Virus record (IMG/VR): IMGVR_UViG_3300020048_000033
Coordinates: 1 to 21,155 of that record
Length of the DNA stretch: 21,155 nucleotides
Direction: 5' to 3' (one strand)
Source: a virus
Lineage: Duplodnaviria > Heunggongvirae > Uroviricota > Caudoviricetes
The translations under genes and the position numbers were made by a program. The number at the start of each line of letters is the position of its first letter. The first letter of the stretch is position 1. Positions 1,711 to 17,081 of the stretch are shown piece after piece. A model generated the notes under the pieces. That model was not told where the DNA came from, did not search any database, and saw only the letters and a program-made list of their open reading frames with translations.

Positions 1711-3651
1711 ATGAATCAATTTACAATTTTATTTACCCTTACTAAAGACGAGAAAGACGTTGAAATTGTTACATTCGGAGGCAACTATGGAGACCCTGAG
1801 TTTCTTGAAGCTACAAAGTGTTTCAGAAAAGTAGGTGGAGATTTTAATAAGCTAATAAAAAAATGGTACATTCCAATAGAATCTTTAAGTCCTCTTGTAG
1901 AACAGATTAATACTTATGTAGGGGATGTAAAACTTTGCGGATTTAATTGTACAGAGTTCGAGGAGTTTCAAGAGAAAGTAAATAAGATTATTTCTGAAAA
2001 ATATATTTCAGAATTAAAACGTTCTACAGTAAGAAGACTATTTAATTCTGAGAACATGGCTTTTCCTCCTTTAGTAGGAATACATCCTTTCGAGGATTTT
2101 CAAAAAAGAGATATTCAAAGAGCTTTAAATCAGAATAGGTTTTTATTTAATTGGGAAATGGGTTTAGGAAAATCTTATGCTACTATCTCCTTAATAGACC
2201 ATTTACGTTTGTATGGGTGTATAGATAAAAGTGTTATCCTTACTACTACCATTGGTACTTTTAATCTTAAGTCTGAGCTATTGAAATTCAGTTTAGTATT
2301 AAAGGATGAAGACATTGTAGTTTGTAAAAATACCTCAGAAGCTAGAAAGCTAAAGATTAAAAATATAGTTGGAAAAGAAAGTAACTATAAAGTTTTAATT
2401 ACTACTTACTCGGTAATGAAATCTTTAGATTCTGATTTCTATAAACTTGAAAGTGGTGAAAGGAAAACTAAAAAGACAAAGAGCAAAGAAGGTTATATCC
2501 CATTTGATGAGTGGAGTGATAAACCCTTGGCACTTTTCTTAGATGAATCTCATAATCTTGGTAATCCAAAATCCTTACAATCTAAGTGTGTTGATTCTCA
2601 CAAACAATTCTTTGATTACATATATGAGTTCACAGGGACATTCGCTGACAAGTACGAAAAAATGTATCAGCAAATAAAGCTCTTAGATCCTAAGCTTGTT
2701 GCGGGTAAAAACTATAACAGTTGGATTCTTGAGTATGGTGATATAGGAACAAAGTTTTCTGAGTATGCGGTAAATCCTCTTTCTTGGAAACTAAACAAAT
2801 TAAATAAGCTTAATGATTTATTGATAGCAAATTATTCAGCTAAAAGAAAAATGGATGAATGCTTAAAGCTCCCCATTGATTATGAAGTACCTACTTTCAC
2901 ATTAGAAATGAGTAAGTCACATAGGGAATTGTATAAATTCTTTATTAAGAACGAACTTGAAAAAATGCAAGAGGAAGCTACAGAACAAGGTAAATCTTTG
3001 ATGTCTATAGTAATAAGTAAATTTGCATGGCTTCAATCCGCTTGTGAAAATCCTTTGGTATTACAGAACACTGAAAGGTTCCATGAGTTTCCTGATGAAT
3101 TGCAAAAGCTTATTAATAACTTTAATTATATTAAGGATAATGCAAAAGTAGCTTTGTGGGATGAAATTATTGCTGAACGTTGTGATGAAGAAGACCAGAA
3201 AGGAATTATTTGGTGTACTCATCCTGTTACAATGAAAATATTAAATGAGCATTATAAAAAATATAATCCTTATCTAATTACTTCTGAAACAGAGGATAAG
3301 TTTGGAGAGGTAGAAAAGTTCAAGAAAGACAAAAAAAGTAAATTACTTATAACTTCAATCTTCGTACTAAATACTTCGGTGACAATAACTGAAGCCAAGT
3401 TTAACCTCTATGCTGAGAGATGTTTCAATTTTACAATATATTCCCAATCAAGGGGACGTATTCATAGACCGGGTAAGACTGAGGTAACTAGAACTTATAA
3501 TTCTGTTTTCAACACAAGTACCGATGCAATACTTGATGCGAACCTAATTCAGAAGGGTCAGATGGTAGACCGATTATTATCAAAAGATTTTTTTACGGAT
3601 CAGGAATGGAAAAACTTTTTCAGTTTTAAGAAAGGCTCAAGTTTCATTTAA
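1711..3651 (+). CDS. SNF2-family (SF2) helicase/translocase
   Basis: 646 aa. Walker A WEMGLGKS, Walker B LFLDESH, motif III FTGT, motif VI QSRGRIHRPGK. Confidence 0.88.
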   Translation: MNQFTILFTLTKDEKDVEIVTFGGNYGDPEFLEATKCFRKVGGDFNKLIKKWYIPIESLSPLVEQINTYVGDVKLCGFNCTEFEEFQEKVNKIISEKYISELKRSTVRRLFNSENMAFPPLVGIHPFEDFQKRDIQRALNQNRFLFNWEMGLGKSYATISLIDHLRLYGCIDKSVILTTTIGTFNLKSELLKFSLVLKDEDIVVCKNTSEARKLKIKNIVGKESNYKVLITTYSVMKSLDSDFYKLESGERKTKKTKSKEGYIPFDEWSDKPLALFLDESHNLGNPKSLQSKCVDSHKQFFDYIYEFTGTFADKYEKMYQQIKLLDPKLVAGKNYNSWILEYGDIGTKFSEYAVNPLSWKLNKLNKLNDLLIANYSAKRKMDECLKLPIDYEVPTFTLEMSKSHRELYKFFIKNELEKMQEEATEQGKSLMSIVISKFAWLQSACENPLVLQNTERFHEFPDELQKLINNFNYIKDNAKVALWDEIIAERCDEEDQKGIIWCTHPVTMKILNEHYKKYNPYLITSETEDKFGEVEKFKKDKKSKLLITSIFVLNTSVTITEAKFNLYAERCFNFTIYSQSRGRIHRPGKTEVTRTYNSVFNTSTDAILDANLIQKGQMVDRLLSKDFFTDQEWKNFFSFKKGSSFI

Positions 3652-3661
3652 GGAGAAATGT

Positions 3662-4219
3662 ATGTCAGAAAATGTAGAGACCATTAATTTTAAAAGGATG
3701 AATATAAAAGCTTTATCAAACTCAGGACTTATTCAATATTTGTTAATATATATTGGTATGGTAGTTGTAGTATTTGATATACCTTTAGCTATAAAGCTTT
3801 TAGCTATATTAGGATTATCAATAACTTCAATAATCTATACTTTTGTCAATATCAGAATATTGAAAGTTTCTGATGATATAATTGACCAGTTGAATTATGA
3901 AGTATGTGAAGAATCTCTTGGGTACTGTTTATCTAAGTATAAAACCAATGATAATAAAGAAACCTTGAAATTCTTTTTTACTACAAATGATAATGAATCT
4001 CTTGAGTATCTTAACACTTGTATCTTAGATAAAGATGGAAATGAAATTGAGAATACCAAAGTTACTATAATGGAAATATGGAGATTTGAAAAAACCGAAG
4101 AGTTTCTAAAACATCCTAAGAGTTTCCTTGTTAGTCAGAAAGAGAGTTTGGTTGAGTCGATAAAAGAATCTGTTGATGAGTTCTTTGTTAAGTTCAAAGA
4201 ATATCTTAATACAAAGTGA
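3662..4219 (+). CDS. Hypothetical membrane protein (about 2 N-terminal TM helices)
   Basis: 185 aa. SD AGGAGA. Hydrophobic stretch LIQYLLIYIGMVVVVFDIPLAIKLLAILGLSITSIIYTF. Confidence 0.75.
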   Translation: MSENVETINFKRMNIKALSNSGLIQYLLIYIGMVVVVFDIPLAIKLLAILGLSITSIIYTFVNIRILKVSDDIIDQLNYEVCEESLGYCLSKYKTNDNKETLKFFFTTNDNESLEYLNTCILDKDGNEIENTKVTIMEIWRFEKTEEFLKHPKSFLVSQKESLVESIKESVDEFFVKFKEYLNTK

Positions 4220-4250
4220 AACAACACTTAAAAATAAAATAGGAGATTAC

Positions 4251-4979
4251 ATGAAAATAGAAAATGTAGAATATTCACTTATCCCTTTCGGAACAGCCAC
4301 AGGGGATAGAGCAATTAATGTTAAAGTAGTGGACACTAAAAATGGTGAGACAAGCGAAGAAGAAGCTAAAGCAATGATTTCTGACTTGAAAGCTTTTTGT
4401 TCTCAGGATAAGGTTTTGGAAGAACAACTGGAACTTGCTTTCATAGCAAAAACTCAGTTTTATTTTGAGGGTGATTGTTTGGCAGAAGGTAAGAACTCAA
4501 AAACTTCTTCACTATTTTTTGACCTTATCTCAGTAGAGTCTTTAAGCAGACAACAGAATAGTGTTCATGTAACTAAACTACGTCCACCTTTCTTGGGATA
4601 TACTGGTTCTCCAACAATGTATTCTGGTTCCAACAATTTTTATGAGCAATTTAATTATCTCATTATTTCTTGTGGTCTTAAAGGAATTAATGAAAGTAAC
4701 CTAAGCGAATACTACCGTGATTTTGCAATGATTGAAATTTCTCGTCATCAATTTTGTTCTTTCGCATTTAAGATTAAAGATGAAGCTGATATCAAAAGTT
4801 TTGAGACCTTCTATCGAGACCGTAATGTAGTTGATATTGACCCAAGAAGAATCTATTTTATTCCAGAAACTACTTCTGTAGAAAATATCAATTTGGTTGC
4901 AAAATACTGTCTTAAAACAGGGTACCGTTTTGGTCTTAATACCTCTCTTTACTGTGAAGAGTACATAAGAAGTATCTAA
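4251..4979 (+). CDS. QueE-like radical-SAM-fold protein lacking the CxxxCxxC motif
   Basis: SD AGGAG before ATG 4251. N-term KIENVEYSLIPFGTATGDRAINVKVV-DT and C-term FKIKDEAD...IYFIPE...ENINLVAKYCLKTGYRF resemble QueE as recalled; no Cys triad present. Confidence 0.55.
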   Translation: MKIENVEYSLIPFGTATGDRAINVKVVDTKNGETSEEEAKAMISDLKAFCSQDKVLEEQLELAFIAKTQFYFEGDCLAEGKNSKTSSLFFDLISVESLSRQQNSVHVTKLRPPFLGYTGSPTMYSGSNNFYEQFNYLIISCGLKGINESNLSEYYRDFAMIEISRHQFCSFAFKIKDEADIKSFETFYRDRNVVDIDPRRIYFIPETTSVENINLVAKYCLKTGYRFGLNTSLYCEEYIRSI

Positions 4980-5000
4980 AATTATTATTTAAATTTCTTA

Positions 5001-5027
5001 AAAGAGTCCATTTCTGGACTCTTTTTT
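5001..5027 (+). terminator. Rho-independent terminator
   Basis: AAAGAGTCCA-tttc-TGGACTCTTT followed by T run. Confidence 0.85.
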
Positions 5028-5036
5028 GTTAATATA
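5027..5036 (+). promoter_or_regulatory. TGTTAATATA motif
   Basis: Directly after the terminator and before the 5039 ORF; same motif at 137 and 19753. Confidence 0.4.
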
Positions 5037-5038
5037 TA

Positions 5039-5284
5039 ATGGATACTAAATACACTATGACCTTAGGAACTATTTGTAGACTACAGAACTCAAGCACCGA
5101 ATCTTTACTCATATATGAAACTTTGAAAAAGAAGTTACCTTTTCTTGTATGTCCTTGTTCATGGAAGAACAGGATAGTGGTTATCCAAGATTTGCTTTCT
5201 TCTAAACATTGCATAATATCCTTAAAGGGTTTTGAAAAACAAATGTCAGTGTGTGCATTAGCAGACTTAAAACAATTACATTAA
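5039..5284 (+). CDS. Hypothetical protein (81 aa; alternative start 5057)
   Basis: ORF fills the gap in a co-directional operon; no recognisable motif. Confidence 0.6.
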   Translation: MDTKYTMTLGTICRLQNSSTESLLIYETLKKKLPFLVCPCSWKNRIVVIQDLLSSKHCIISLKGFEKQMSVCALADLKQLH

Positions 5285-5294
5285 GGATTAGAAA

Positions 5295-5795
5295 ATGAAA
5301 ACTTCATGTGGAATAATACTCTCCGATGGTGAAAGTATTCTTGCAGGATTAGCTACAGGAAAAAAAGATGCACACCATATGTATGACCTTGCAGGTAAGG
5401 GTGGTAAAGATAAAAATGAATCCTACCTTGAAGCGGCAATAAGAGAACTTAGAGAGGAAACTGGAATTGATTTGCCTATTACTGTTTTTTCTCATATAAA
5501 AGATTTAGGACAATTTAAGTATATCAAAGATAAAGAACTTCATTTGTTTTCTTTACACATAGAAAAGATGCCAGAGATTTCAACCCTGTTTTGTGATTCT
5601 ACATACGAGATGTATGGTAGACAACTTCCTGAAATTGCTCAGTACAAAAACTTTGGATTAGATGAATTGTTTTGGTTTTATAAAAGCCTAGAGCCTGTGC
5701 TGAAAAAAGCAACTTCTGGGGATTGGCTTAATGATGAAGTAATATCCTTAAGTTCTTTTTTAATTAAGAAAAAGAAACAAGGTTTATTTATCTAA
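5295..5795 (+). CDS. Nudix hydrolase, T4 NudE-like
   Basis: Nudix box GKGGKDKNESYLEAAIRELREETGI; N-term SCGIIL as in NudE-like proteins. Confidence 0.9.
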   Translation: MKTSCGIILSDGESILAGLATGKKDAHHMYDLAGKGGKDKNESYLEAAIRELREETGIDLPITVFSHIKDLGQFKYIKDKELHLFSLHIEKMPEISTLFCDSTYEMYGRQLPEIAQYKNFGLDELFWFYKSLEPVLKKATSGDWLNDEVISLSSFLIKKKKQGLFI

Positions 5796-5812
5796 AAACT
5801 TTGGAGGTTACA

Positions 5813-6040
5813 ATGTTCACACTATTCATGTGTAAGAAATATGGTATCAATACTAAAATAGATATGGTATTCAAAGGGATATATTCCACTATTGATACGT
5901 TAAGATTAGCAATAAGTTCTGACCCAGAGCTTTGTGCAAATATGAGAGATTTATATTTCAACTTTTCCCAGATAGACTTTGTAGAAACTATTTCTGTAGA
6001 GTCCTTTTCACCAGTTATAATTAAAGATGGAGGTTATTGA
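5813..6040 (+). CDS. Hypothetical protein (75 aa)
   Basis: SD GGAGG before ATG 5813; the stop abuts the next gene. Confidence 0.65.
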   Translation: MFTLFMCKKYGINTKIDMVFKGIYSTIDTLRLAISSDPELCANMRDLYFNFSQIDFVETISVESFSPVIIKDGGY

Positions 6041-6041
6041 T

Positions 6042-8219
6042 ATGATATCAATATTGAAAGCAAAGTTAAAAAACTTTATGTGTATAGATGAGGCTGATTT
6101 AGATTTTCCAGAAAATAAATCTACTATGATTGTAGGTGAAAATGGTTCAGGTAAATCTGCGGTGTTGTGTTCAATTGGTTTAGCTTTTGATTCGTATAAG
6201 AAAGGTGCATCCTTTTCTGATTACATTAAAAAGAATACAAATGAAGCAAAAGTGTTTATTGAAGCTAAGATACATAATGAACCTATCACTTTCGATATTA
6301 CCCTTTCAAGAAAGGGTACTGCATTTGGTCGTATCATCACCTATAAAGAAAAAGAATATATCAATACTGAGTGTGACCAGTTACTTGAAACACTGGAAGT
6401 AACTTATTTTTCTAAAGTAATATTTTCCATGCAGGATGAAGGAGATATTACTTTGATGAAACCGGCGGCACGAGCCGATTTATTATCAAAGCTTCTTGAG
6501 TACGATTTCTCAACTATTGTTTCTAAAGTTTCAGAACTTATAGCTGACTTGAAAAATAAAGTTGTGGATAATAATGCCTCTATTAAACTTAATACGGAAT
6601 TAAGTGCCGAGAAGACAAAAGAAATTGCTATAGTAGAAACTCTTGATTTCACAAATGAAGATATTAAGACATATGAAGAAAAACAAAAGTCTGTTGAATT
6701 AAAGATACAAGCTTATGATAAAATTTCAGAAGACAATTCTTTAATAAATGAAGAGATTGAAACTGTTCGTAAATCTCTTGAACCTTTAACTAAAGAACTT
6801 GAAACTCCTACTTCTATAATCACAAGAGAATCTGAAAAACTTGTAGGTCTTAAAAAAGACTTAGAAAGTTATGAGTCAAGAAAATATTCTATTGAAGAAG
6901 AAATATTAAAAGCAGAAAGCACCATATTAGCTAAAACAATAAAATCAGAAAGTGTACTTGCTTCTCTTGATAATTCAGAGACAGCTATATCTGAGGTTGA
7001 AGCCAAACTTACTGAAAGCAGAAAAATTGGTACAAGTTATACAGTTTCCTACACTCAGATTTGCTCAAGTATCGAAAAAATTAATTCTGATATAAAGTTT
7101 ATGGAGCAGGGTACTTGTCCTACATGTTCATCTACTATTGATCAATCTCAAGTACCTGCATTAAACTCTCAGAAGGAAACACTTAGTAAAGATAAGACTG
7201 AAATTATCAGTAAACAAACTCTTGAAAGGGATAATCAAGTTAAGCTCGATGAAATTCTGAAAGATAAGCAGAAAATTAAAAGTGATATTAAGGGTGAACT
7301 TACTTCACTCACTGATGCAATAAAAACACTTAATGCTTCTATTTCAGAGTCCAAGAAGAAACTCGTAGAGTTAGTAAAACCTCTTGAAGAAACTCTATCC
7401 GCTTGTGAATTATTAATAAAAACAAACAGTGATAAGAAAAATGCAATACAGGAAAAAATTCTTGCTATACAGAAACAGATTTCCTTGCTTGAAACAAGTC
7501 GTGTAACTCAGGAACGAAGTGAGAAGGTAGCTTTTATTGTAGAAAAGAACTCTATCATAGAAAAACTTAAAGATTTTAGTAAAAGAATGGCTTCCATACT
7601 TGAGGTAGAACAATCAAATGCCAGACTTATTAAAGAGATAGCTTCTTGTGAACTTAAAGTAGTAGAACTTAAAGCATTAAATGTTTTAATGAATCAAGAG
7701 ATAGAAGATAATGTAGAAGCAAAGAAAGTTCTTGATAAGGATTTACCTAATTATCTTATAGTTAAGACCTGTGATAAATTAGAGAAAAGAATTAATAGGT
7801 TTGTTCATTCCGTATTTCCTGATATGACTATAAAGATGTATCAGGATAAAAAGGGTGTTGATTTCTTTTATGTCCCTGCTGGAAGCTATGATGCAGATCC
7901 AGAAAATAAAGAATCTTGGATTAATATTGCAATGTCTTCTGGTTGTGAAAAAGCCGCTCTTAGTGTAGGTTGGCGTGTTGCACTTGCAGAAAGTTATGGT
8001 ATTGATATTTTAATGCTCGACGAAGTAGACTCAGCGGCTACAGATAAATCCTCTGAAAAACTTTTAACAACAGTTCTTGATTCCTCAAAGTTCTCACAAG
8101 TATTTATTGTTACTCATAGGAAAGAAACAAGGGACTTTCTGGTAAATAGTAAAGACATAAAAGTTTATTATGCTGATCATGGAGAGTTCTCACTTGATGA
8201 CCCAGAGGATTTTGAATGA
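6042..8219 (+). CDS. Rad50/SbcC/T4 gp46-like SMC-family ATPase (recombination endonuclease subunit)
   Basis: SD GGAGG before ATG 6042. Walker A GENGSGKS, long coiled coil with central CPTC zinc hook, signature SSGCEK, Walker B LMLDEVDS, H-loop IVTH. Confidence 0.92.
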   Translation: MISILKAKLKNFMCIDEADLDFPENKSTMIVGENGSGKSAVLCSIGLAFDSYKKGASFSDYIKKNTNEAKVFIEAKIHNEPITFDITLSRKGTAFGRIITYKEKEYINTECDQLLETLEVTYFSKVIFSMQDEGDITLMKPAARADLLSKLLEYDFSTIVSKVSELIADLKNKVVDNNASIKLNTELSAEKTKEIAIVETLDFTNEDIKTYEEKQKSVELKIQAYDKISEDNSLINEEIETVRKSLEPLTKELETPTSIITRESEKLVGLKKDLESYESRKYSIEEEILKAESTILAKTIKSESVLASLDNSETAISEVEAKLTESRKIGTSYTVSYTQICSSIEKINSDIKFMEQGTCPTCSSTIDQSQVPALNSQKETLSKDKTEIISKQTLERDNQVKLDEILKDKQKIKSDIKGELTSLTDAIKTLNASISESKKKLVELVKPLEETLSACELLIKTNSDKKNAIQEKILAIQKQISLLETSRVTQERSEKVAFIVEKNSIIEKLKDFSKRMASILEVEQSNARLIKEIASCELKVVELKALNVLMNQEIEDNVEAKKVLDKDLPNYLIVKTCDKLEKRINRFVHSVFPDMTIKMYQDKKGVDFFYVPAGSYDADPENKESWINIAMSSGCEKAALSVGWRVALAESYGIDILMLDEVDSAATDKSSEKLLTTVLDSSKFSQVFIVTHRKETRDFLVNSKDIKVYYADHGEFSLDDPEDFE

Positions 8220-9798: not shown

Positions 9799-12700
9799 AT
9801 GTACATAATTAAAAAGAACTCTGATGTAGTTCCGTTTGAATCGGATCACATTAAGAAGTCTATCGTTCGGGCGGCAAAAGCTGTTCTTGGTTCTGATTTA
9901 GAGAAAAAGATTGACATTGAATCAATCACTCAGTCAGTTGTTGAAAAGATTGAAGCACTAAATATCGAGAAAATCGGTATTGAAAAGATTCAAGATATTG
10001 TAGAGATTGCTTTGATGGAACATCATCAATATGACGTAGCAAAATCTTTTATCCTATATCGAAAAGCCCGTACAGATGAAAGAGAATCTAAAAATGATCT
10101 TATTTCTTATACAGAAGTAATGAATGGATATCTCGACCAGACTGATTGGCGCACAAAAGAAAACTCCAATGTAAACTATTCTCTCGGAGGTTCTATCCTT
10201 CATAACAATAGTGCTATTACTGCAAACTATTGGCTAAAGAAAGTTTATTCACCACAGATTGCCGATGCTCATAAAAATGCAGATTTTCATTTACATGATT
10301 TAGGTATCTTCGCTTCATATTGTGCAGGATGGTCATTACGAGAACTTCTTACTCAAGGTATCACTGGTGTATCAGATAAAGTAAGTTCCGCTCCCTCAAA
10401 ACATTTGAATACCTTGTGTCAACAAATTGTAAACTTTTTAGGTATCATGCAAAATGAATGGGCAGGTGCTCAGGCATTTAGCTCCGTAGATACTTACCTT
10501 GCACCTTTTATTAAAATTGATAGCCTTTCATATGAGCAGGTTTATCAGTGTGTTCAAACTCTTATCTATGGAATTAATACTCCTTCACGTTGGGGGTGTC
10601 AGTCCCCTTTCAGTAATTTTACATTAGACTGGACTGTTCCTTCCGATATGAAAGATAAGAAAGCAATTGTTGGTGGTAAAGAACAAGACTTCACTTATGG
10701 TGATTGTCAAGTAGAAATGGATATGTTCAATAAAGCATTTTTTGAGATGTTCTCCAACGGAGATAATCAAGGAAGAAGTTTTCAATACCCCATTCCTACA
10801 GTAAATATTACCCCAGAGTTTTGGAATCATAATCCAGAGAATCAGGAAATACTTTTTAAGCTTACCTCCAAGTTTGGAACACCTTATTTCCAAAACTTTA
10901 TTAATTCTGACATCGATCCATCGGATGTAAGATCGATGGCTTTGATGCCATCTCAAAGGGTTATCTATAAGAACAGAGATGGTAGAGTTTCTGTAAATGA
11001 AATTAGACATCTTGTAAACGAATGGTTTTTACAAGAAGATAAGAGTAAACCCTTATATGAAATGCTTATTGATGGAAGGTTTGTTCCTGTAACAGAAATG
11101 TTTAAAATCCCTTATAAAAAATATGGTAAATCAGTTAGTATTATGTTGTCAAATGGGTATGTACAGCCTTTTTCTATGGATCATAAATGTCAAGTATTAA
11201 GAGCGGGTGTTATTCAAACCATTCTAAGTCAAGAAGTTTTAGAATCTGATAGCTTTATTCTTTCTAAAAAACCTTTTGGAATTAATAATGGGGTAGGTAC
11301 ATATGATACAGGAAAAATTGTAGGATATTTTCTTGCGGAGGGTTGGTATAGTTCTCATTCAGCGAATGAGATTGTGTTTGCTATAAATATAAATCAAGAA
11401 CCTATTGTTTCAGAAATTAAAAACTTTTTCATGTCAATAGGGTGTAATGTCATAATTAAAAAACAGGAAGAAGTTAATATTTTTAGAGTCCAAGTTTATG
11501 GGAAACAAGCTGTAGGATTGGTTTCCAATTATATTCATGGAAATACGGCACTAACGAAGAGGCTTTCTTCTAATATGTGGAATAGTGATGATAGTTTTAG
11601 AGAGGGTGTCTATTCAGGATATTATGATACTGATGGTTGTAGGAAAGAAAAAAACTTTGCACATACCCCTAATAAGGATTTAATTCAGGATTTTATAATC
11701 CTTTCTTCCTCTTTAGGAAAAATATTAAAATATAGTGTAAACAAAAATAACACAAGATACTTTAAGGAAGATAAATCCGATCTCGAAGTATTTACAAGTT
11801 ACAAATTAGATGAATATTCATCTGATGAAACCTCTGAATATTTTATTGTTCCTGTCAAAGAGGTGAAGGTTGTTTCTTCTCGGGCAGAGTTTGTATACAA
11901 TTTTACGGTTGATACTCCTGAGCATCTTTTCGAGTTACCTAACGGTATTATTACCCACCAATGTTGTCGCCTTCGTTTGGACAAGAGGGAACTTCGTAAA
12001 AGGGGTGGTGGACTTTTCGGTTCAGCAGAACTTACAGGCTCAGTTGGTGTTGTAACATTGAACCTACCCAGAATTGGATATCTTGCAAATGATGAAGAAG
12101 ACTTCTATCAGAGACTTAATAGCCTTATGGATATCGCAAAGGATTCTTTAGAGATTAAACGAAAAGTTTTAATCAAAAACCTACAAGAGGGTTTGTACCC
12201 ATATACAAGAGCTTATATTTCTTCCTTCGACAATTTCTTTAGTACAATTGGTATTGTAGGTCTTAATGAAGCAATACAAAACTTGTTCGGTAAAGAAATA
12301 AATATCGGAACAGAAAAAGGTAAGGGTTTTGCTATTGAAGTTCTTAATCATATGAGAACCCATATATCAAACTATCAAGTTGAAACTGGAAACCTTTATA
12401 ACCTTGAAAGTACCCCTGCTGAAAGTACTTGCTATAGACTGGCACTCCATGATCAGAAAAAATATCCTGACATTATTACCGCAGGTAGCAATGGAGACCC
12501 CTACTATACAAATAGTTCAAACCTTCCAGTAGGTTTTACAGATGACCCTTGGGTAGCTATTGAACATCAAGAACCTCTGCAACTCAAGTACACTGGCGGG
12601 ACTGTATTTCATGCTTTCTTAGGTCAGCAAGTAGATAATGGTGAAGCAACCAGAAACTTTATTAAAAAAGTTTTTGAAAATAGTAAAATACCGTATCTTA

Positions 12701-12852
12701 CTATCTCACCTGTATATTCTATCTGTTCTGTACATGGATACCTTGCAGGTAGCCAAGAACGTTGCCCGAAGTGCAGGGATGAACAGGTAAAGGCTTACAA
12801 GAAGAAACTTAATGATCTTAAAAAACAAAAATCCGAATTAGAACTAATCTAA
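9799..12852 (+). CDS. nrdD: Anaerobic (class III) ribonucleoside-triphosphate reductase with ATP-cone, intein-containing, lacking the C-terminal glycyl-radical loop
   Basis: ATP-cone MYIIKKNSDVVPFESDHIKKSI; YCAGWSL, QNEWAGAQAFS, QSPFSN, RSM|CCRLRLD (split by the intein), YNLESTPAES, YTGGTVFH, CSVHG...CPKC. Confidence 0.95.
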   Translation: MYIIKKNSDVVPFESDHIKKSIVRAAKAVLGSDLEKKIDIESITQSVVEKIEALNIEKIGIEKIQDIVEIALMEHHQYDVAKSFILYRKARTDERESKNDLISYTEVMNGYLDQTDWRTKENSNVNYSLGGSILHNNSAITANYWLKKVYSPQIADAHKNADFHLHDLGIFASYCAGWSLRELLTQGITGVSDKVSSAPSKHLNTLCQQIVNFLGIMQNEWAGAQAFSSVDTYLAPFIKIDSLSYEQVYQCVQTLIYGINTPSRWGCQSPFSNFTLDWTVPSDMKDKKAIVGGKEQDFTYGDCQVEMDMFNKAFFEMFSNGDNQGRSFQYPIPTVNITPEFWNHNPENQEILFKLTSKFGTPYFQNFINSDIDPSDVRSMALMPSQRVIYKNRDGRVSVNEIRHLVNEWFLQEDKSKPLYEMLIDGRFVPVTEMFKIPYKKYGKSVSIMLSNGYVQPFSMDHKCQVLRAGVIQTILSQEVLESDSFILSKKPFGINNGVGTYDTGKIVGYFLAEGWYSSHSANEIVFAININQEPIVSEIKNFFMSIGCNVIIKKQEEVNIFRVQVYGKQAVGLVSNYIHGNTALTKRLSSNMWNSDDSFREGVYSGYYDTDGCRKEKNFAHTPNKDLIQDFIILSSSLGKILKYSVNKNNTRYFKEDKSDLEVFTSYKLDEYSSDETSEYFIVPVKEVKVVSSRAEFVYNFTVDTPEHLFELPNGIITHQCCRLRLDKRELRKRGGGLFGSAELTGSVGVVTLNLPRIGYLANDEEDFYQRLNSLMDIAKDSLEIKRKVLIKNLQEGLYPYTRAYISSFDNFFSTIGIVGLNEAIQNLFGKEINIGTEKGKGFAIEVLNHMRTHISNYQVETGNLYNLESTPAESTCYRLALHDQKKYPDIITAGSNGDPYYTNSSNLPVGFTDDPWVAIEHQEPLQLKYTGGTVFHAFLGQQVDNGEATRNFIKKVFENSKIPYLTISPVYSICSVHGYLAGSQERCPKCRDEQVKAYKKKLNDLKKQKSELELI
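10939..11961 (+). mobile_element. Intein (341 aa) with LAGLIDADG homing endonuclease; Ala1 and C-terminal His-Gln
   Basis: Removing it restores DVRSM-CCRLRLD. Block A ALMPSQRV, block B SMDH, block C IVGYFLAEG, block E GVYSGYYDTDG, block F VYNFTV, block G NGIITHQ/C. Confidence 0.92.
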
Positions 12853-14920: not shown

Positions 14921-16009
14921 ATGAAAAGCTTTTTGGGGTTGAAGGGTAGTGAAAGGGATAAGTTTTATCAGTCAAAATACGAGTATTTTTTAAAGTTAAA
15001 TTTAGGGGCAATATTTTCTTCTTATATTAGCTTAGTATTACTGTGGGTAACGGATTGTCAACTTTTTGGTAGATTAGCTTTTGAAACTCTTTTTCCCCGG
15101 GTAATAATGGTACTTCCGATAAGTCTATTTTATATTCTTGTTAAGAGGGGTGTAACTAATTACAGGATAATGATACCCTTTACTTATTTTATATTACATG
15201 GAATAATGTGGTGTACAATATGGGCATGTTACTATCTACCTACTAACAAGTTTTCAAGTCAAGGTTTTATGATGATGCAGTTTATGTTTCTTATAGTAGG
15301 TTTCAGTGCCCCCTACTTTAGAAATATATTTTTCCATTTAGGTATATTTTTAAATATGTATGTATCTCACTTCTTTATTAACTATGAAGATTTCCTTATG
15401 TTGATGCTCTTTGGTATTCCCTTATATATAGGGATTGCTATCATTCAGTATGTTTTAACTAACTCTTATAAAGAACAATACGATCTTAAACAGAAACTTT
15501 CGGAGTTAGCCACAGTTGATTTTCTCACAAAAGCTTATAATAGGAATATTCTTACTACCATTACTGAACCAGAAACTAAAAAGTTTATTAAAAAATTGGG
15601 TGTATCGATTAAAATCCTTCTTTTGGACATTGATTTTTTCAAGAAAATAAACGATGATTTTGGTCATGATGCAGGAGATACCGTTCTTACTACTGTCTCT
15701 GAAACAATAAAGTCCTGTATTAGGGATACCGATATTTTCCTTAGATGGGGTGGAGAGGAGTTTGTTGTAATTATGCCAAATATTACCCTTGAATCCGCAA
15801 AAATGATTGCAGAAAGAATTCGTTCATCCGTGGAAAAAGTAGAAACCGGTCTTCGAGGGGTAACAGTATCAATCGGTATTTCTGACTATGATAATGACAA
15901 TTATCAGGAATCAATAGATAACTCCGATAAGGCTTTGTATAAAGCAAAAGAATCGGGAAGAAACCAAGTACAGTATTTTAAGGAATTAAGAAGTGTTACA
16001 AATAACTAA
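14921..16009 (+). CDS. Membrane-anchored diguanylate cyclase (GGDEF domain)
   Basis: About 5-6 N-terminal TM segments; DFLTKAYNR, LLDIDFFKKINDDFGHDAGD, I-site RDTD, RWGGEEF, VTVSIG, DKALYKAKESGRN. Confidence 0.95.
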   Translation: MKSFLGLKGSERDKFYQSKYEYFLKLNLGAIFSSYISLVLLWVTDCQLFGRLAFETLFPRVIMVLPISLFYILVKRGVTNYRIMIPFTYFILHGIMWCTIWACYYLPTNKFSSQGFMMMQFMFLIVGFSAPYFRNIFFHLGIFLNMYVSHFFINYEDFLMLMLFGIPLYIGIAIIQYVLTNSYKEQYDLKQKLSELATVDFLTKAYNRNILTTITEPETKKFIKKLGVSIKILLLDIDFFKKINDDFGHDAGDTVLTTVSETIKSCIRDTDIFLRWGGEEFVVIMPNITLESAKMIAERIRSSVEKVETGLRGVTVSIGISDYDNDNYQESIDNSDKALYKAKESGRNQVQYFKELRSVTNN

Positions 16010-16661
16010 AAGTTTTAAGAGAATATATGAGGCATCCAATAAATATCAATCTTCCTCCGAGTTTTTGAAATGGTTTGGAAATTCTGTGGTGGTGAATGAG
16101 GAAGGTAAACCCCTAGTAGTTTATCATGGAACTCGATTTAAGTCTAAAAATGATAAGCTTCGGTCAGGTTCTTGGTTCACAGATAACTCAGATTTTGCAG
16201 GGGGTTTTATTAATGGAAGAAAGTCTAATGGTACCCCGAGTGAAAGAGAGGTAAAGGATAGAAGTAGAATATATCCTGCATTTTTATCAATAAAGAATCC
16301 TATAATATATAAAGCCGCATGGCATCACATTTCACCTGAAAGGTTTGCAAATATTGTAGGTATCCCCTATGAGGACTTAAATGCAAAGGCTCTTGAGTTT
16401 GCTCGACAAGGCAATAAAAAAGAGGAAGCAGAGCATGAGAATGACTGGGTAAGAAATCCTTACGCCTCAGGTTGGAGACAAAAGGACTTTCCAATCTCTG
16501 AAATGCCAGAGAATATGTTTGCCATATATTTTGATAATAAAAATCTTATAAAGGCTCTTCAATTTTATGGTTTTGATGGGGTTCAGTCTATGGAAGGTGG
16601 ATCGAACACTTGGCAGGTTTGGGACGAATCTCAGGTAAGGTCTATATATGGAAAAGGATGA
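15993..16661 (+). CDS. ART-PolyVal-like ADP-ribosyltransferase-fold protein with N-terminal FKRIYEA motif
   Basis: FLKWFGNSVVVNEEGKPLVVYHGT, WFT, IYPAFLSIKNP, GFDGV..MEGG...WQVWDESQVRS. GTG start with SD AAGGA; overlaps the DGC stop. Confidence 0.65.
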   Translation: MLQITKSFKRIYEASNKYQSSSEFLKWFGNSVVVNEEGKPLVVYHGTRFKSKNDKLRSGSWFTDNSDFAGGFINGRKSNGTPSEREVKDRSRIYPAFLSIKNPIIYKAAWHHISPERFANIVGIPYEDLNAKALEFARQGNKKEEAEHENDWVRNPYASGWRQKDFPISEMPENMFAIYFDNKNLIKALQFYGFDGVQSMEGGSNTWQVWDESQVRSIYGKG

Positions 16662-16694: not shown

Positions 16695-17081
16695 TTACAG
16701 GATGGGGATAACGGTGGGATTCAGGCTGTCAAAAAAATCGTTGATGGATTTGATTGGCGTAGAATTGTTACAGGAAAAAAGGTCATTTCCCCGATTTGTC
16801 CCTTCTCTGATGACAATCTCCTGAGGACTGTGAGTGTACCCAAAATAGTACCGTTTTCCTCCGATAATGCACCATACTGAGTTTCCCGTCTTATCCATCG
16901 GGTCTGAGGTGGAAATTACGGTAATTTCTTCATTACCTTGGGCATCTTTGTCGCTGTAGATGAAGATATTCCCTATGAGAAGTGGTACAATATCCCTGAC
17001 CTCAAGGGCATGATGGTTGCTTCGTGCGATAGCTTCCACGAAATGAAGCCGAAGGTCTGCGGGGGAAAGTTTCTGAGGCAT
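16695..17081 (-). CDS. Protein resembling the integron cassette protein Cass14 (VCH_CASS14) family
   Basis: SD AGGAG. ARSNHHA..V, NSVWCIIGGKRYYFGYTH...IVIREG..RG...NSTP match the recalled Cass14 pattern RADHHA / NVLW..I.G.RY.F.YNH / NSTP. GC about 45% by hand count. Confidence 0.65.
   Translation of the reverse strand: MPQKLSPADLRLHFVEAIARSNHHALEVRDIVPLLIGNIFIYSDKDAQGNEEITVISTSDPMDKTGNSVWCIIGGKRYYFGYTHSPQEIVIREGTNRGNDLFSCNNSTPIKSINDFFDSLNPTVIPIL

What the first reader, a model, noticed from the sequence alone, without database searches (positions are those of the whole stretch)
10939..11961. Doubly non-canonical intein (Ala1 plus C-terminal Gln) at the NrdD active-site cysteines
Seen: the intein begins with Ala (GCT, two substitutions from a Cys codon, so not a single-base error) and ends His-Gln before Cys+1. 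It lacks the class 3 signature: block B has SMDHKC with no Trp and block F has Asn where class 3 has Cys. Known: Ala1 inteins cannot do the standard N-S shift and splice by class 2 (KlbA-type, direct attack by Cys+1) or class 3 routes; Gln-terminal inteins are a separate rare type. Inference: a class 2-like mechanism combined with Gln cyclisation, outside KlbA, inserted one residue before the probable thiyl-radical Cys (M-C-C-R aligns with M-G-C-R of T4/E. coli NrdD). RNR activity would then depend on splicing, possibly as a redox- or condition-dependent switch. Both LAGLIDADG acidic residues appear intact.
Basis: partly seen in the sequence, partly recalled or inferred. Interest (0 to 1): 0.82.

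Follow-up and report, generated by a model that had tools for sequence, protein, structure and literature searches.

The report
Alanine-start, glutamine-end intein in phage NrdD
A large phage's anaerobic ribonucleotide reductase gene is interrupted at its twin-cysteine motif by a real, mobile self-splicing protein insert from a widespread, apparently undescribed lineage that has lost the usual first cysteine (Ala instead) and last asparagine (Gln instead), so it must splice by a rare route known so far from one archaeal protein family.

Summary
Window 10939..11961 encodes a 341-residue intein with a LAGLIDADG endonuclease, inside nrdD (9799..12852). It starts with Ala (GCT) and ends His-Gln before Cys-Cys-Arg. 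Removing it restores DVRSM-CCRLRL, the motif of 118 of the 119 closest listed intein-less NrdDs.

It is not an error. 66 protein clusters (about 370 sequences; large phages, Halanaerobium congolense DSM 11287 and bacterial MAGs) carry Ala1 and terminal Gln at this site, using all four Ala codons and both Gln codons. A second sample's contigs reproduce both junctions.

These inteins form one clade (support 99) nested among Cys1/Asn inteins of the same site. Ser-x-x-His in block B and Asn at block F position 4 are invariant, so there is no class 3 Trp-Cys-Thr triplet. No relation to KlbA was detected.

Most likely it splices like class 2: Cys+1 attacks the Met-Ala bond directly, then Gln cyclises. 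That chemistry is inferred, not shown. It could be an alternative nucleophile or a redox gate.

Verdict: a new variant of a known kind. The papers I could search describe no Ala1/Gln intein in NrdD. Earlier scan notes report other nucleophile-less NrdD inteins on other DNA, not this clade.

The parts
9799..12852 (+). nrdD precursor ORF (1017 aa): large subunit of a class III ribonucleotide reductase, including the intein
   Evidence: Pfam ATP-cone plus NRDD at E 2e-159. NCBIfam NF006126 matches both exteins.
9799..10938 (+). N-extein (aa 1-380), ending ...D-V-R-S-M. The ATP-cone is aa 1-92 (9799..10074).
   Evidence: It matches NF006126 positions 4-376 at E 9e-159. It is 66-68% identical to intein-less Treponema-type NrdDs.
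10939..11961 (+). Intein, 341 aa, from Ala1 to His340-Gln341
   Evidence: AlphaFold2 model with mean pLDDT 93.5. Foldseek top hits are the TliVMA, PhoVMA, PI-SceI and PI-PfuI inteins, E down to 4e-16. 66 homologous clusters sit at the same site.
10939..10977 (+). Block A: A-L-M-P-S-Q-R-V-I-Y... Ala1 is codon GCT. Gln6 and Tyr10 are conserved in the clade.
   Evidence: Ala1 in 66 of 66, Gln6 in 64 of 66, Tyr10 in 65 of 66. The register matches the canonical C-[LI]-x-G-x-[TS]-x-[VI] pattern.
11173..11190 (+). Block B core S79-M-D-H82-K83-C84, i.e. positions B:7 Ser, B:10 His, B:11 Lys, B:12 Cys
   Evidence: Ser 66 of 66, His 66 of 66, Lys 61 of 66, Cys 63 of 66. The exceptions at B:12 are Thr, Thr and Leu.
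11296..11838 (+). LAGLIDADG homing-endonuclease domain (about aa 120-300). Motif 1 is GYFLAEG at 11323..11343 and motif 2 is YYDTDG at 11620..11637.
   Evidence: Weak Pfam LAGLIDADG_3 match. Profile match to PI-PkoII at E 3e-6. I-DmoI and PI-SceI fold matches. Glu134 and Asp232 are nearly invariant in the clade.
11893..11937 (+). Block F: V-Y-N321-F-T323-V-D-T-P-E-H329-L-F-E-L. Position F:4 is Asn, not the Asp of classes 1 and 2 or the Cys of class 3.
   Evidence: Asn321, Phe322, Thr323 and His329 are each present in 66 of 66.
11941..11961 (+). Block G: N-G-I-I-T-H340-Q341 (CAC CAA)
   Evidence: Gln in 66 of 66. Position G:6 is His in 59 and Pro in 7.
11962..11967 (+). Cys+1 (TGT), the presumed splicing nucleophile, and Cys+2 (TGT), which aligns with the thiyl-radical Cys290 of T4 NrdD
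   Evidence: PMC4493059 aligns 328-SCCR-331 of T. maritima with 288-MGCR-291 of T4.
11962..12852 (+). C-extein (aa 722-1017) plus stop. It contains the Zn site C-x-x-H...C-P-K-C but no glycyl-radical R-[IV]-x-G-Y motif.
   Evidence: It matches NF006126 positions 377-663 at E 4e-135. The motif is absent.

Best explanation
This is a functional, mobile intein that carries a LAGLIDADG homing endonuclease. It sits between Met and the first Cys of the conserved S-M-C-C-R-L motif of a phage NrdD large subunit.

It belongs to one conserved clade that descended from ordinary Cys1/Asn inteins of the same site and then lost both terminal catalytic residues: Cys1 became Ala and the terminal Asn became Gln.

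The proposed mechanism is as follows, and every step is inferred rather than shown:
- With no residue-1 nucleophile and no Cys at block F position 4, the thiol of extein Cys+1 attacks the Met(-1)-Ala1 peptide bond directly. The bond is activated by block B Ser79 and His82. This forms the standard branched thioester, as in class 2 inteins.
- Gln341 then cyclises (to a glutarimide) and releases the intein.
- An S-to-N shift restores Met-Cys-Cys-Arg.
- Gln cyclisation is slow. This probably keeps C-terminal cleavage from outrunning the slow direct attack, which would explain why Ala1 and Gln always occur together.

Because the insert splits the motif that carries the catalytic cysteine, the reductase should be inactive until splicing occurs.
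For: Intein identity:
- Exact excision restores the motif found in 118 of the 119 closest listed intein-less homologues.
- The exteins match NF006126 positions 376|377 without a gap.
- The model is confident, pLDDT 93.5. Its best structural matches are solved LAGLIDADG inteins.

Not an error:
- Ala1 and Gln occur in 66 of 66 clusters that are only 33-59% identical to this intein.
- Ala is encoded by GCT, GCA, GCC and GCG, and Gln by CAA and CAG.
- Contigs from a second sample are identical at both junctions.

Selection and mobility:
- 47 columns are invariant in a 28-sequence alignment (inteins plus 10 flanking extein residues on each side), including Ser B:7, His B:10, Asn F:4, His F:13 and Gln.
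- Both endonuclease acidic residues are conserved.
- Intein and extein similarities disagree. The closest inteins sit in NrdDs only 44-52% identical, while the closest exteins are intein-less.
- The intein lies in the chromosomal nrdD-nrdG locus of the cultured anaerobe Halanaerobium congolense DSM 11287.

Origin:
- The clade is a single branch with SH-aLRT 99, nested among Cys1/Asn inteins of the same site.
- Its sister P0066 is still Cys1...His-Asn but already has Asn at F:4, Thr at F:6 and Lys at B:11.

Not class 3: F:4 is Asn in 66 of 66 and B:12 is never Trp.

B:12 Cys looks dispensable: three members lack it, including the earliest-branching one, which has Leu.

Literature basis:
- Class 2 chemistry and the rule that step 3 must not outrun branch formation come from PMC4031507.
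- Gln-terminal inteins do splice, as shown for Pab PolII and CIV RNR.
Against: - No splicing assay exists for any member, so the mechanism is inference.
- KlbA requires Asp at F:4 (PMC4031507), whereas this clade has invariant Asn. Activation of Cys+1 must therefore differ.
- Standard inteins mutated at residue 1 cannot attack the amide bond (PMC2807308).
- A Cys at B:12 that arises within the nucleophile-less clade and is kept in 95% of members hints at a role that the simple class 2 scheme does not need.
- H. congolense also has a weak class I/II RNR match, so its NrdD is not proven essential.
- This phage record lacks the glycyl-radical small subunit and NrdG, so activity of this particular NrdD is unproven. 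The record is only about 47% complete.
Confidence: 0.6

Rival explanations
1. Splicing runs through an internal nucleophile at a new position. Cys84 (block B position 12, two residues after the catalytic His) attacks the Met-Ala bond first and passes the N-extein to Cys+1. This is analogous to class 3, but uses block B rather than the block F Cys.
For: - Cys at B:12 is found in 63 of 66 clade members, against 2 of the 13 Cys1/Asn inteins of this site in the same alignment and 1 of 60 Pro1-type inteins.
- It is absent from the Cys1 sister P0066, which has Gln there.
- B:12 is the position of the class 3 Trp, which packs against the catalytic F:4/B:10 cluster in solved class 3 structures (PMC7664689). 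The side chain therefore faces the active site.
Against: - Three otherwise intact members have Thr, Thr or Leu at this position.
- The Leu-bearing P0063 is the earliest branch of the clade. Ala1/Gln therefore existed before Cys B:12, and without it.
- No distances could be measured in the model.
Confidence: 0.12
2. Splicing is conditional. Cys84 forms a disulfide with Cys+1 (or Cys+1 with Cys+2) under oxidising conditions. This blocks the only nucleophile, so the oxygen-sensitive reductase matures only when the cell is reduced. This is an add-on to either mechanism, not a replacement.
For: - Cys84 is conserved and Cys+1 and Cys+2 are invariant.
- Disulfide switches are documented for Gln-terminal PolII inteins and others (Nicastri 2013 and related work, cited in PMC4031507).
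- The host enzyme functions only anaerobically.
Against: This is inference only. The clade's basal and Thr/Leu members lack Cys84. Phage infection cycles are short, so delayed maturation has a cost.
Confidence: 0.15
3. The intein is a non-splicing or cleavage-only relic. The insert is retained or merely cuts NrdD, and the gene is dead or repurposed.
For: - Both canonical terminal residues are missing.
- Pfam Intein_splicing does not recognise the insert.
- This phage record lacks NrdG and the glycyl-radical subunit.
Against: - Splicing blocks are strictly conserved across 66 clusters that are only 33-59% identical to this intein, with synonymous codon turnover at Ala1 and Gln.
- The exteins are intact and the endonuclease motifs are conserved.
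- The intein is present in the nrdD-nrdG operon of a cultured anaerobe and in a phage recovered on more than 30 contigs.
Confidence: 0.05
4. The Ala codon, the Gln codon or both are sequencing or assembly errors in an ordinary Cys1/Asn intein.
For: None found.
Against: Each codon is two substitutions from the canonical one. An independent sample's contigs are identical. All 66 related clusters share both residues.
Confidence: 0.01

Closest known systems
Class 2 inteins: Methanococcus jannaschii KlbA intein and its archaeal orthologues (Southworth 2000; NMR structure 2jnq; reviewed in PMC4031507)
   Same: Both have Ala at position 1 and no Trp-Cys-Thr triplet. Both have Cys at +1, and block B has Thr/Ser-x-x-His. 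The most likely first step is the same: direct attack of Cys+1 on the N-terminal peptide bond.
   Different: - This intein is not an orthologue. The clade is nested among Cys1 NrdD inteins, and a clade profile finds no KlbA chain in the PDB up to E 10.
- KlbA inteins end Ser-Asn, whereas this one ends His(or Pro)-Gln.
- KlbA needs Asp at F:4, whereas this clade has invariant Asn.
- The KlbA intein described in the reviews ends Ser-Asn and sits in an archaeal membrane-associated protein (the host description is from my own knowledge, not tested here). This intein carries a LAGLIDADG endonuclease and lives in phage and bacterial NrdD.
Gln-terminal inteins: Pyrococcus abyssi and P. horikoshii PolII inteins (2lcj, 5bkh) and the Chilo iridescent virus RNR intein
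   Same: Both have a C-terminal His-Gln followed by Cys+1. Pab PolII is the second-best sequence match in the PDB (E 5e-5), and its ...VTHQ end aligns with ...ITHQ here. Splicing with Gln has been shown experimentally for these inteins (PMC4031507).
   Different: The PolII inteins were not among the nucleophile-less inteins tallied in InBase in 2009 (34 WCT + 1 WDT + 5 KlbA). Those inteins therefore keep an N-terminal nucleophile and use the class 1 route. Their host proteins also differ.
Cys1/Asn class 1 inteins at the same NrdD site (for example P0066, P0072-P0079, P0123)
   Same: They share the insertion point (RSM|CC), the LAGLIDADG architecture and 31-37% identity. Together with this clade they form one well-supported group.
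   Different: They keep Cys1 and Asn. Most have Thr at B:7, Pro at B:11, Asp at F:4 and Glu at F:6. P0066 is intermediate: Cys1/Asn, but with Asn at F:4, Thr at F:6 and Lys at B:11.
Class 3 inteins (mycobacteriophage Bethlehem DnaB; Msm and Mch DnaB-1)
   Same: Neither has a nucleophile at residue 1. Both have phage associations. Both have Thr/Ser at G:5.
   Different: Class 3 is defined by Trp at B:12 and an obligate Cys at F:4, usually with Ser or Thr at +1 (PMC2807308). Here B:12 is Cys, F:4 is Asn and +1 is Cys.

Membership tests
Intein (HINT splicing domain with nested LAGLIDADG endonuclease) | An in-frame insert whose exact removal restores a conserved host motif | tested here: met
   118 of the 119 closest listed intein-less homologues read DVRSMCCRL[RQ]L. 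NF006126 positions run 376|377 across the junction.
Intein (HINT splicing domain with nested LAGLIDADG endonuclease) | HINT fold plus LAGLIDADG fold | tested here: met
   pLDDT 93.5. Foldseek hits to TliVMA, PhoVMA, PI-SceI and PI-PfuI with E from 4e-16 to 1e-8.
Intein (HINT splicing domain with nested LAGLIDADG endonuclease) | Protein splicing activity | not testable with these tools
   Only indirect support: conservation, mobility, and presence in a cultured anaerobe's nrdD-nrdG operon.
Class 1 inteins | Cys, Ser or Thr at residue 1 for the N-S/O acyl shift | tested here: not met
   Ala (GCT) at 10939-10941. Ala in 66 of 66 clade members.
Class 2 inteins (KlbA type) | No N-terminal nucleophile, no Trp-Cys-Thr triplet, and Cys at +1 | tested here: met
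   Ala1, Cys at B:12, Asn at F:4 and Cys+1.
Class 2 inteins (KlbA type) | Orthology to the Mja KlbA intein. As of 2014 all known members are orthologues that arose from a single event (PMC4031507). | tested here: not met
   The clade is nested among Cys1 inteins of NrdD with support 99. No KlbA chain is matched in the PDB up to E 10.
Class 2 inteins (KlbA type) | Ser at G:6 with terminal Asn, and a required Asp at F:4 | tested here: not met
   G:6 is His in 59 and Pro in 7. G:7 is Gln in 66 of 66. F:4 is Asn in 66 of 66.
Class 2 inteins (KlbA type) | Direct attack of Cys+1 on the N-terminal amide bond | not testable with these tools
   This needs mutant and intermediate analysis in vitro.
Class 3 inteins | Trp at B:12, Cys at F:4, Thr at G:5 | tested here: not met
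   B:12 is Cys (63), Thr (2) or Leu (1). F:4 is Asn in 66 of 66. Only G:5 fits, being Thr or Ser.
Gln-terminal inteins | C-terminal Gln in place of Asn, next to a +1 nucleophile | tested here: met
   CAA at 11959-11961 followed by TGT. Gln in 66 of 66.
Class III RNR large subunit, NCBIfam NF006126 (PRK08270) type | Full-length match of the spliced protein to the family profile | tested here: met
   N-extein scores 529.8 bits over positions 4-376 and C-extein 451.7 bits over positions 377-663. The family cut-off is 548 bits.
Class III RNR large subunit, NCBIfam NF006126 (PRK08270) type | C-terminal glycyl-radical motif R-[IV]-x-G-Y in the same polypeptide | tested here: not met
   The motif is absent here and in 112 of the 119 closest listed homologues. 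In Breznakiella and Halanaerobium it is encoded by a separate small ORF.

The most novel reading that the evidence does not exclude
The conserved Cys two residues after the block B His (Cys84) is catalytic or regulatory. One possibility is that it is the first nucleophile, forming a block B thioester intermediate, which would be a fourth mechanistic route of protein splicing. The other is that it traps Cys+1 in a disulfide, so that an oxygen-sensitive reductase matures only under reducing conditions.
Probability: 0.15. Interest if true: 0.85.

Novelty: new variant of a known kind. Interest (0 to 1): 0.62.

Why it matters
Reviews state that all class 2 inteins are orthologues of one archaeal intein and that classes 2 and 3 each arose once (PMC4031507). 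This clade would be a second, independent loss of the N-terminal nucleophile without the class 3 solution.

Several features make it unusually useful for study:
- Its Cys1/Asn relatives at the same site are still extant, and one intermediate (P0066) is available. The order of compensating changes can therefore be reconstructed and tested by mutagenesis.
- Ala1 and terminal Gln are perfectly coupled. This gives a natural test of the idea that the rates of the first and third splicing steps must be matched.
- The clade occurs in a cultured anaerobe, Halanaerobium congolense DSM 11287, so experiments are feasible.

On the practical side, Pfam's intein model misses this clade, so such NrdD genes are annotated without their intein. 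A Cys1-free intein that needs only the extein's own cysteine may also be of use in protein engineering.

Tried and rejected
- Assembly error: rejected.
- Class 3: rejected.
- KlbA orthology: rejected.
- I recalled that the Chilo iridescent virus RNR intein also starts with Ala. The InBase 2009 tally of nucleophile-less inteins (34 WCT + 1 WDT + 5 KlbA) leaves no room for it, so I dropped the idea. The primary paper (Amitai 2004) is not held, and the supplement of Tori 2010 is not held.
- Sequence search of PDB chains with the single intein found nothing. Pfam found no intein family, only a weak LAGLIDADG_3 match. PF14890 finds nothing in this phage record.
- The cultured-phage collection holds no member. 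The only matches are 24-26% identical: an uncultured faecal phage record and the Clostridium phage c-st/D-1873 NrdD intein.
- The search for related loci with the 93-row alignment failed because no stretch was conserved enough. It worked with 28 rows.
- Model coordinates are not exposed, so the distances from Cys84 and Cys+1 to the scissile bond could not be measured.
- No RNA holder is listed among public runs, so nothing can be said on expression.
- NrdG (PF13353) and the small glycyl-radical subunit were searched for by family, by tblastn and by motif. Neither was found in the 143-kb record. The record is about 47% complete, so this is not evidence of absence.
- Literature searches for NrdD inteins, for class 2 inteins outside KlbA and for Ala1/Gln inteins found no description of this clade. 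[quoted passage not shown]
Full report
**What is in the window**

The ORF 9799..12852 (+) encodes a 1017-residue protein with an N-terminal ATP-cone and the Pfam NRDD domain split in two. Residues 381-721 (nt 10939..11961) are an insert. It starts A-L-M-P-S-Q-R-V-I-Y and ends G-I-I-T-H-Q, followed by C-C-R-L-R-L.

GCT is two substitutions from a Cys codon, and CAA is two substitutions from an Asn codon.

Block B reads S-M-D-H-K-C and block F reads V-Y-N-F-T-V. The two LAGLIDADG motifs are GYFLAEG and YYDTDG.

**The boundaries are exact**

Of the 119 closest listed NrdD homologues, 118 lack the insert (about 700 aa, mostly Treponema and other spirochaetes, 63-68% identical in the N-extein). They read DVRSMCCRL[RQ]L across the site. 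The 119th carries a different intein there.

The two exteins match NCBIfam NF006126 at profile positions 4-376 and 377-663, with no position lost or gained.

**It has the fold of an intein**

A precursor model (intein plus 10 extein residues on each side, 93-sequence alignment) has mean pLDDT 93.5. Its best matches among solved structures are endonuclease-bearing inteins: TliVMA, PhoVMA, PI-SceI, PI-PfuI and PI-PkoII, with E from 4e-16 to 1e-8. I-DmoI matches the nested domain.

Sequence methods almost miss it. Pfam gives only a sub-threshold LAGLIDADG_3 match and no intein family. PF14890 finds nothing in the whole phage record.

**It is a clade, not an oddity or an error**

A word-indexed search of 5.8 billion proteins and an exhaustive HMMER search of 1.84 billion representatives were run. 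They give 66 clusters at 90% identity, about 370 member sequences by my sum of the counts. These inteins sit at the same NrdD site and are mostly 42-59% identical to this one, with two outliers at 33-35%.

All 66 start with Ala and end with Gln. 59 have His-Gln and 7 have Pro-Gln.

Among the top 150 representatives related to the intein in any host protein, Ala1 and terminal Gln occur only in members of this NrdD clade. Wherever the other relatives' ends could be mapped, they start with Cys and end in Asn, apart from two whose alignments end in neither residue.

DNA from nine phage loci and two bacterial genomes shows Ala encoded by GCT, GCA, GCC and GCG, and Gln by CAA and CAG. The residues, not the codons, are therefore conserved.

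Logan contigs of a second aquatic sample from the same study cover 10833-11332 and 11940-12132 with no differences.

**Signature of the clade**

| Position | Residue | Count |
|---|---|---|
| Residue 1 | Ala | 66/66 |
| Residue 6 | Gln | 64/66 |
| B:7 | Ser | 66/66 |
| B:10 | His | 66/66 |
| B:11 | Lys | 61/66 |
| B:12 | Cys | 63/66 |
| F:4 | Asn | 66/66 |
| F:6 | Thr | 66/66 |
| F:13 | His | 66/66 |
| G:7 | Gln | 66/66 |

The Cys1/Asn inteins at the same site mostly have Thr at residue 6, Thr at B:7, Pro at B:11, Ser at B:12, Asp at F:4 and Glu at F:6.

**Origin**

A maximum-likelihood tree of 103 inteins places all Ala1/Gln inteins on one branch (SH-aLRT 99). This branch lies inside a well-supported group (100) that otherwise holds only Cys1/Asn inteins of the same site.

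The sister, P0066, is still Cys1...His-Asn. It already has Asn at F:4, Thr at F:6, Ser at B:7 and Lys at B:11, with Gln at B:12.

The earliest-branching Ala1/Gln member, P0063, has Leu at B:12. The most economical order of events is:
1. F:4 changed from Asp to Asn in a class 1 background.
2. Cys1 changed to Ala together with Asn to Gln.
3. Cys appeared at B:12.

The tree is unrooted, so this order is an inference.

**Mobility**

Intein and extein similarities are incongruent. The inteins nearest to this one (54-57% identical) sit in NrdDs whose exteins are only 44-58% identical. NrdDs with the most similar exteins (60-64%) hold inteins that are 45-51% identical. The most similar exteins of all are intein-less.

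Both endonuclease acidic residues are nearly invariant.

Carriers include:
- large phage contigs, one of them recovered on more than 30 contigs;
- the chromosomal nrdD-nrdG locus of Halanaerobium congolense DSM 11287;
- two MAGs.

**Which class**

Class 1 is excluded because there is no residue-1 nucleophile.

Class 3 is defined by Trp B:12, an obligate Cys F:4 and Thr G:5, usually with Ser or Thr at +1 (PMC2807308). Here F:4 is invariant Asn, B:12 is never Trp, and +1 is Cys.

What remains is the class 2 logic, in which Cys+1 attacks the N-terminal amide directly (PMC4031507). The operational definition of class 2 (no N-terminal nucleophile, no WCT triplet) is met, but family membership is not:
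- The literature describes class 2 as KlbA orthologues only, arising from a single event.
- KlbA orthologues all have Ser at G:6 with terminal Asn, and they require Asp at F:4.
- This clade is nested in NrdD class 1 inteins. A clade profile finds the Gln-terminal Pab PolII intein in the PDB (E 5e-5) but no KlbA chain up to E 10.

So it works like class 2, most probably, without being a member of that family.

**Why Gln**

Reviews stress that step 3 must not outrun branch formation. They also report that Gln cyclisation is slower than Asn cyclisation in the PolII inteins.

KlbA lacks the penultimate His that normally assists Asn cyclisation. This clade uses Gln, and in 7 clusters it also has Pro at G:6. 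I infer that the perfect Ala1-Gln coupling reflects kinetic matching of a slow first step with a slow third step. This is inference, not a result.

**The overlooked cysteine**

Cys84 lies two residues after the block B His. This is the position of the class 3 Trp, which superimposes as part of the catalytic cluster in class 3 structures (PMC7664689). It faces the active site and is kept in 95% of the clade.

It could be:
- a small residue that widens the pocket, in line with the steric explanation offered for KlbA;
- a first nucleophile;
- a disulfide partner of Cys+1.

The three exceptions (Thr, Thr, Leu), one of them basal, argue against an obligatory nucleophile but do not exclude the other roles.

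**The insertion site**

M-C-C-R aligns with 288-MGCR-291 of T4 NrdD, whose Cys290 is the thiyl-radical residue. The Met corresponds to the finger-loop Met proposed to form the thiosulfuranyl radical (PMC4493059). The intein therefore separates the Met from the two cysteines.

There is one caveat. In the only solved structure of a CC-motif NrdD (T. maritima, subclass NrdDh), the S-C-C-R motif lies in a disordered loop far from the finger-loop tip. The authors consider a large conformational change the most likely explanation.

**Context**

The window is the first 21 kb of a 143-kb IMG/VR virus record, estimated 47% complete, from an aquatic metagenome.

Neighbouring genes encode an SNF2-type helicase, a NUDIX hydrolase, an SbcC-like ATPase, a GGDEF cyclase, an ART-PolyVal domain and an RNA ligase.

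**What is not shown**

No member has been tested for splicing, and no expression data were found. This phage fragment lacks the activase and the glycyl-radical subunit. H. congolense has another RNR-like gene.

**Earlier notes of this scan**

Earlier notes on other DNA report an Ala1 GIY-YIG intein in NrdD, Pro1 inteins between the two cysteines, and an Ala1/Gln intein in an Fe-S protein.

Noticed in passing
window 11962..12852; L013 7221-7796; L014 6229-6927 and G001:C4:46825-46926: This NrdD has no glycyl-radical R-[IV]-x-G-Y motif after its Zn site, and 112 of its 119 closest listed homologues lack it too. In Breznakiella homolactica a 191-aa ORF directly after nrdD carries RIVGY plus a glutaredoxin-like domain, followed by nrdG. 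In Halanaerobium congolense a 46-aa frame matching the end of the NRDD profile follows nrdG. This NrdD type therefore appears to be naturally split into a large subunit and a small glycyl-radical subunit. Neither the small subunit nor NrdG is in the 143-kb phage record.
   Followed up: partly
proteins P0080-P0120 and others; e.g. P0263: A second large intein family sits one residue downstream, between the two cysteines (RSMC|...THN|CRL). Its block A register and its Cys1 relatives at that site both show that it starts with Pro, not Cys. It has Cys at block F position 4 in 59 of 60 members, but Asn or Gln instead of Trp at B:12. The two adjacent sites of one motif have therefore each produced a nucleophile-less lineage.
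   Followed up: partly
P0122 (209-aa fragment), residues about 160-209: In this fragment the Ala1/Gln intein ends ...ITHQ, followed by a single Cys and then P-L-T-K-D-T-R-V, the start of a Pro1-type intein. These are two inteins in tandem separated by one extein residue. That residue would be +1 for the first intein and -1 for the second.
   Followed up: no
P0066 (1036 aa), intein residues about 381-724: This Cys1...His-Asn intein at the same site is the sister of the Ala1/Gln clade. It already has Asn at F:4, Thr at F:6 and Lys at B:11. It looks like a living intermediate between class 1 and the nucleophile-less state.
   Followed up: partly
window 10939..11961: Pfam Intein_splicing (PF14890) and the Hint families do not detect this clade. 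Precomputed annotations for most of the 66 clusters list only NRDD, sometimes with LAGLIDADG_3. Standard pipelines will therefore report an over-long NrdD without an intein.
   Followed up: yes
L014 (Halanaerobium congolense DSM 11287, NZ_SOEF01000004.1), 1888-6228: The chromosomal nrdD of this cultured strict anaerobe is 1446 aa and carries two inteins. One is the Ala1/Gln type (GCA...CAA) and the other is a canonical type that Pfam recognises. This gives a culturable system for testing splicing.
   Followed up: partly
window 14921..16661 and 16695..17081 (-): The phage encodes a GGDEF diguanylate cyclase (E 2e-43) whose ORF overlaps that of an ART-PolyVal ADP-ribosyltransferase domain protein. 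On the opposite strand there is a homologue of the integron cassette protein VCH_CASS14.
   Followed up: no
P0262 (950 aa), residues about 367-412 and 524-569: This close NrdD homologue contains the uninterrupted stretch INSDMEPSDVRSMCCRLRLDLRELRK... twice, about 157 residues apart. This is either an internal duplication or an assembly artefact.
   Followed up: no
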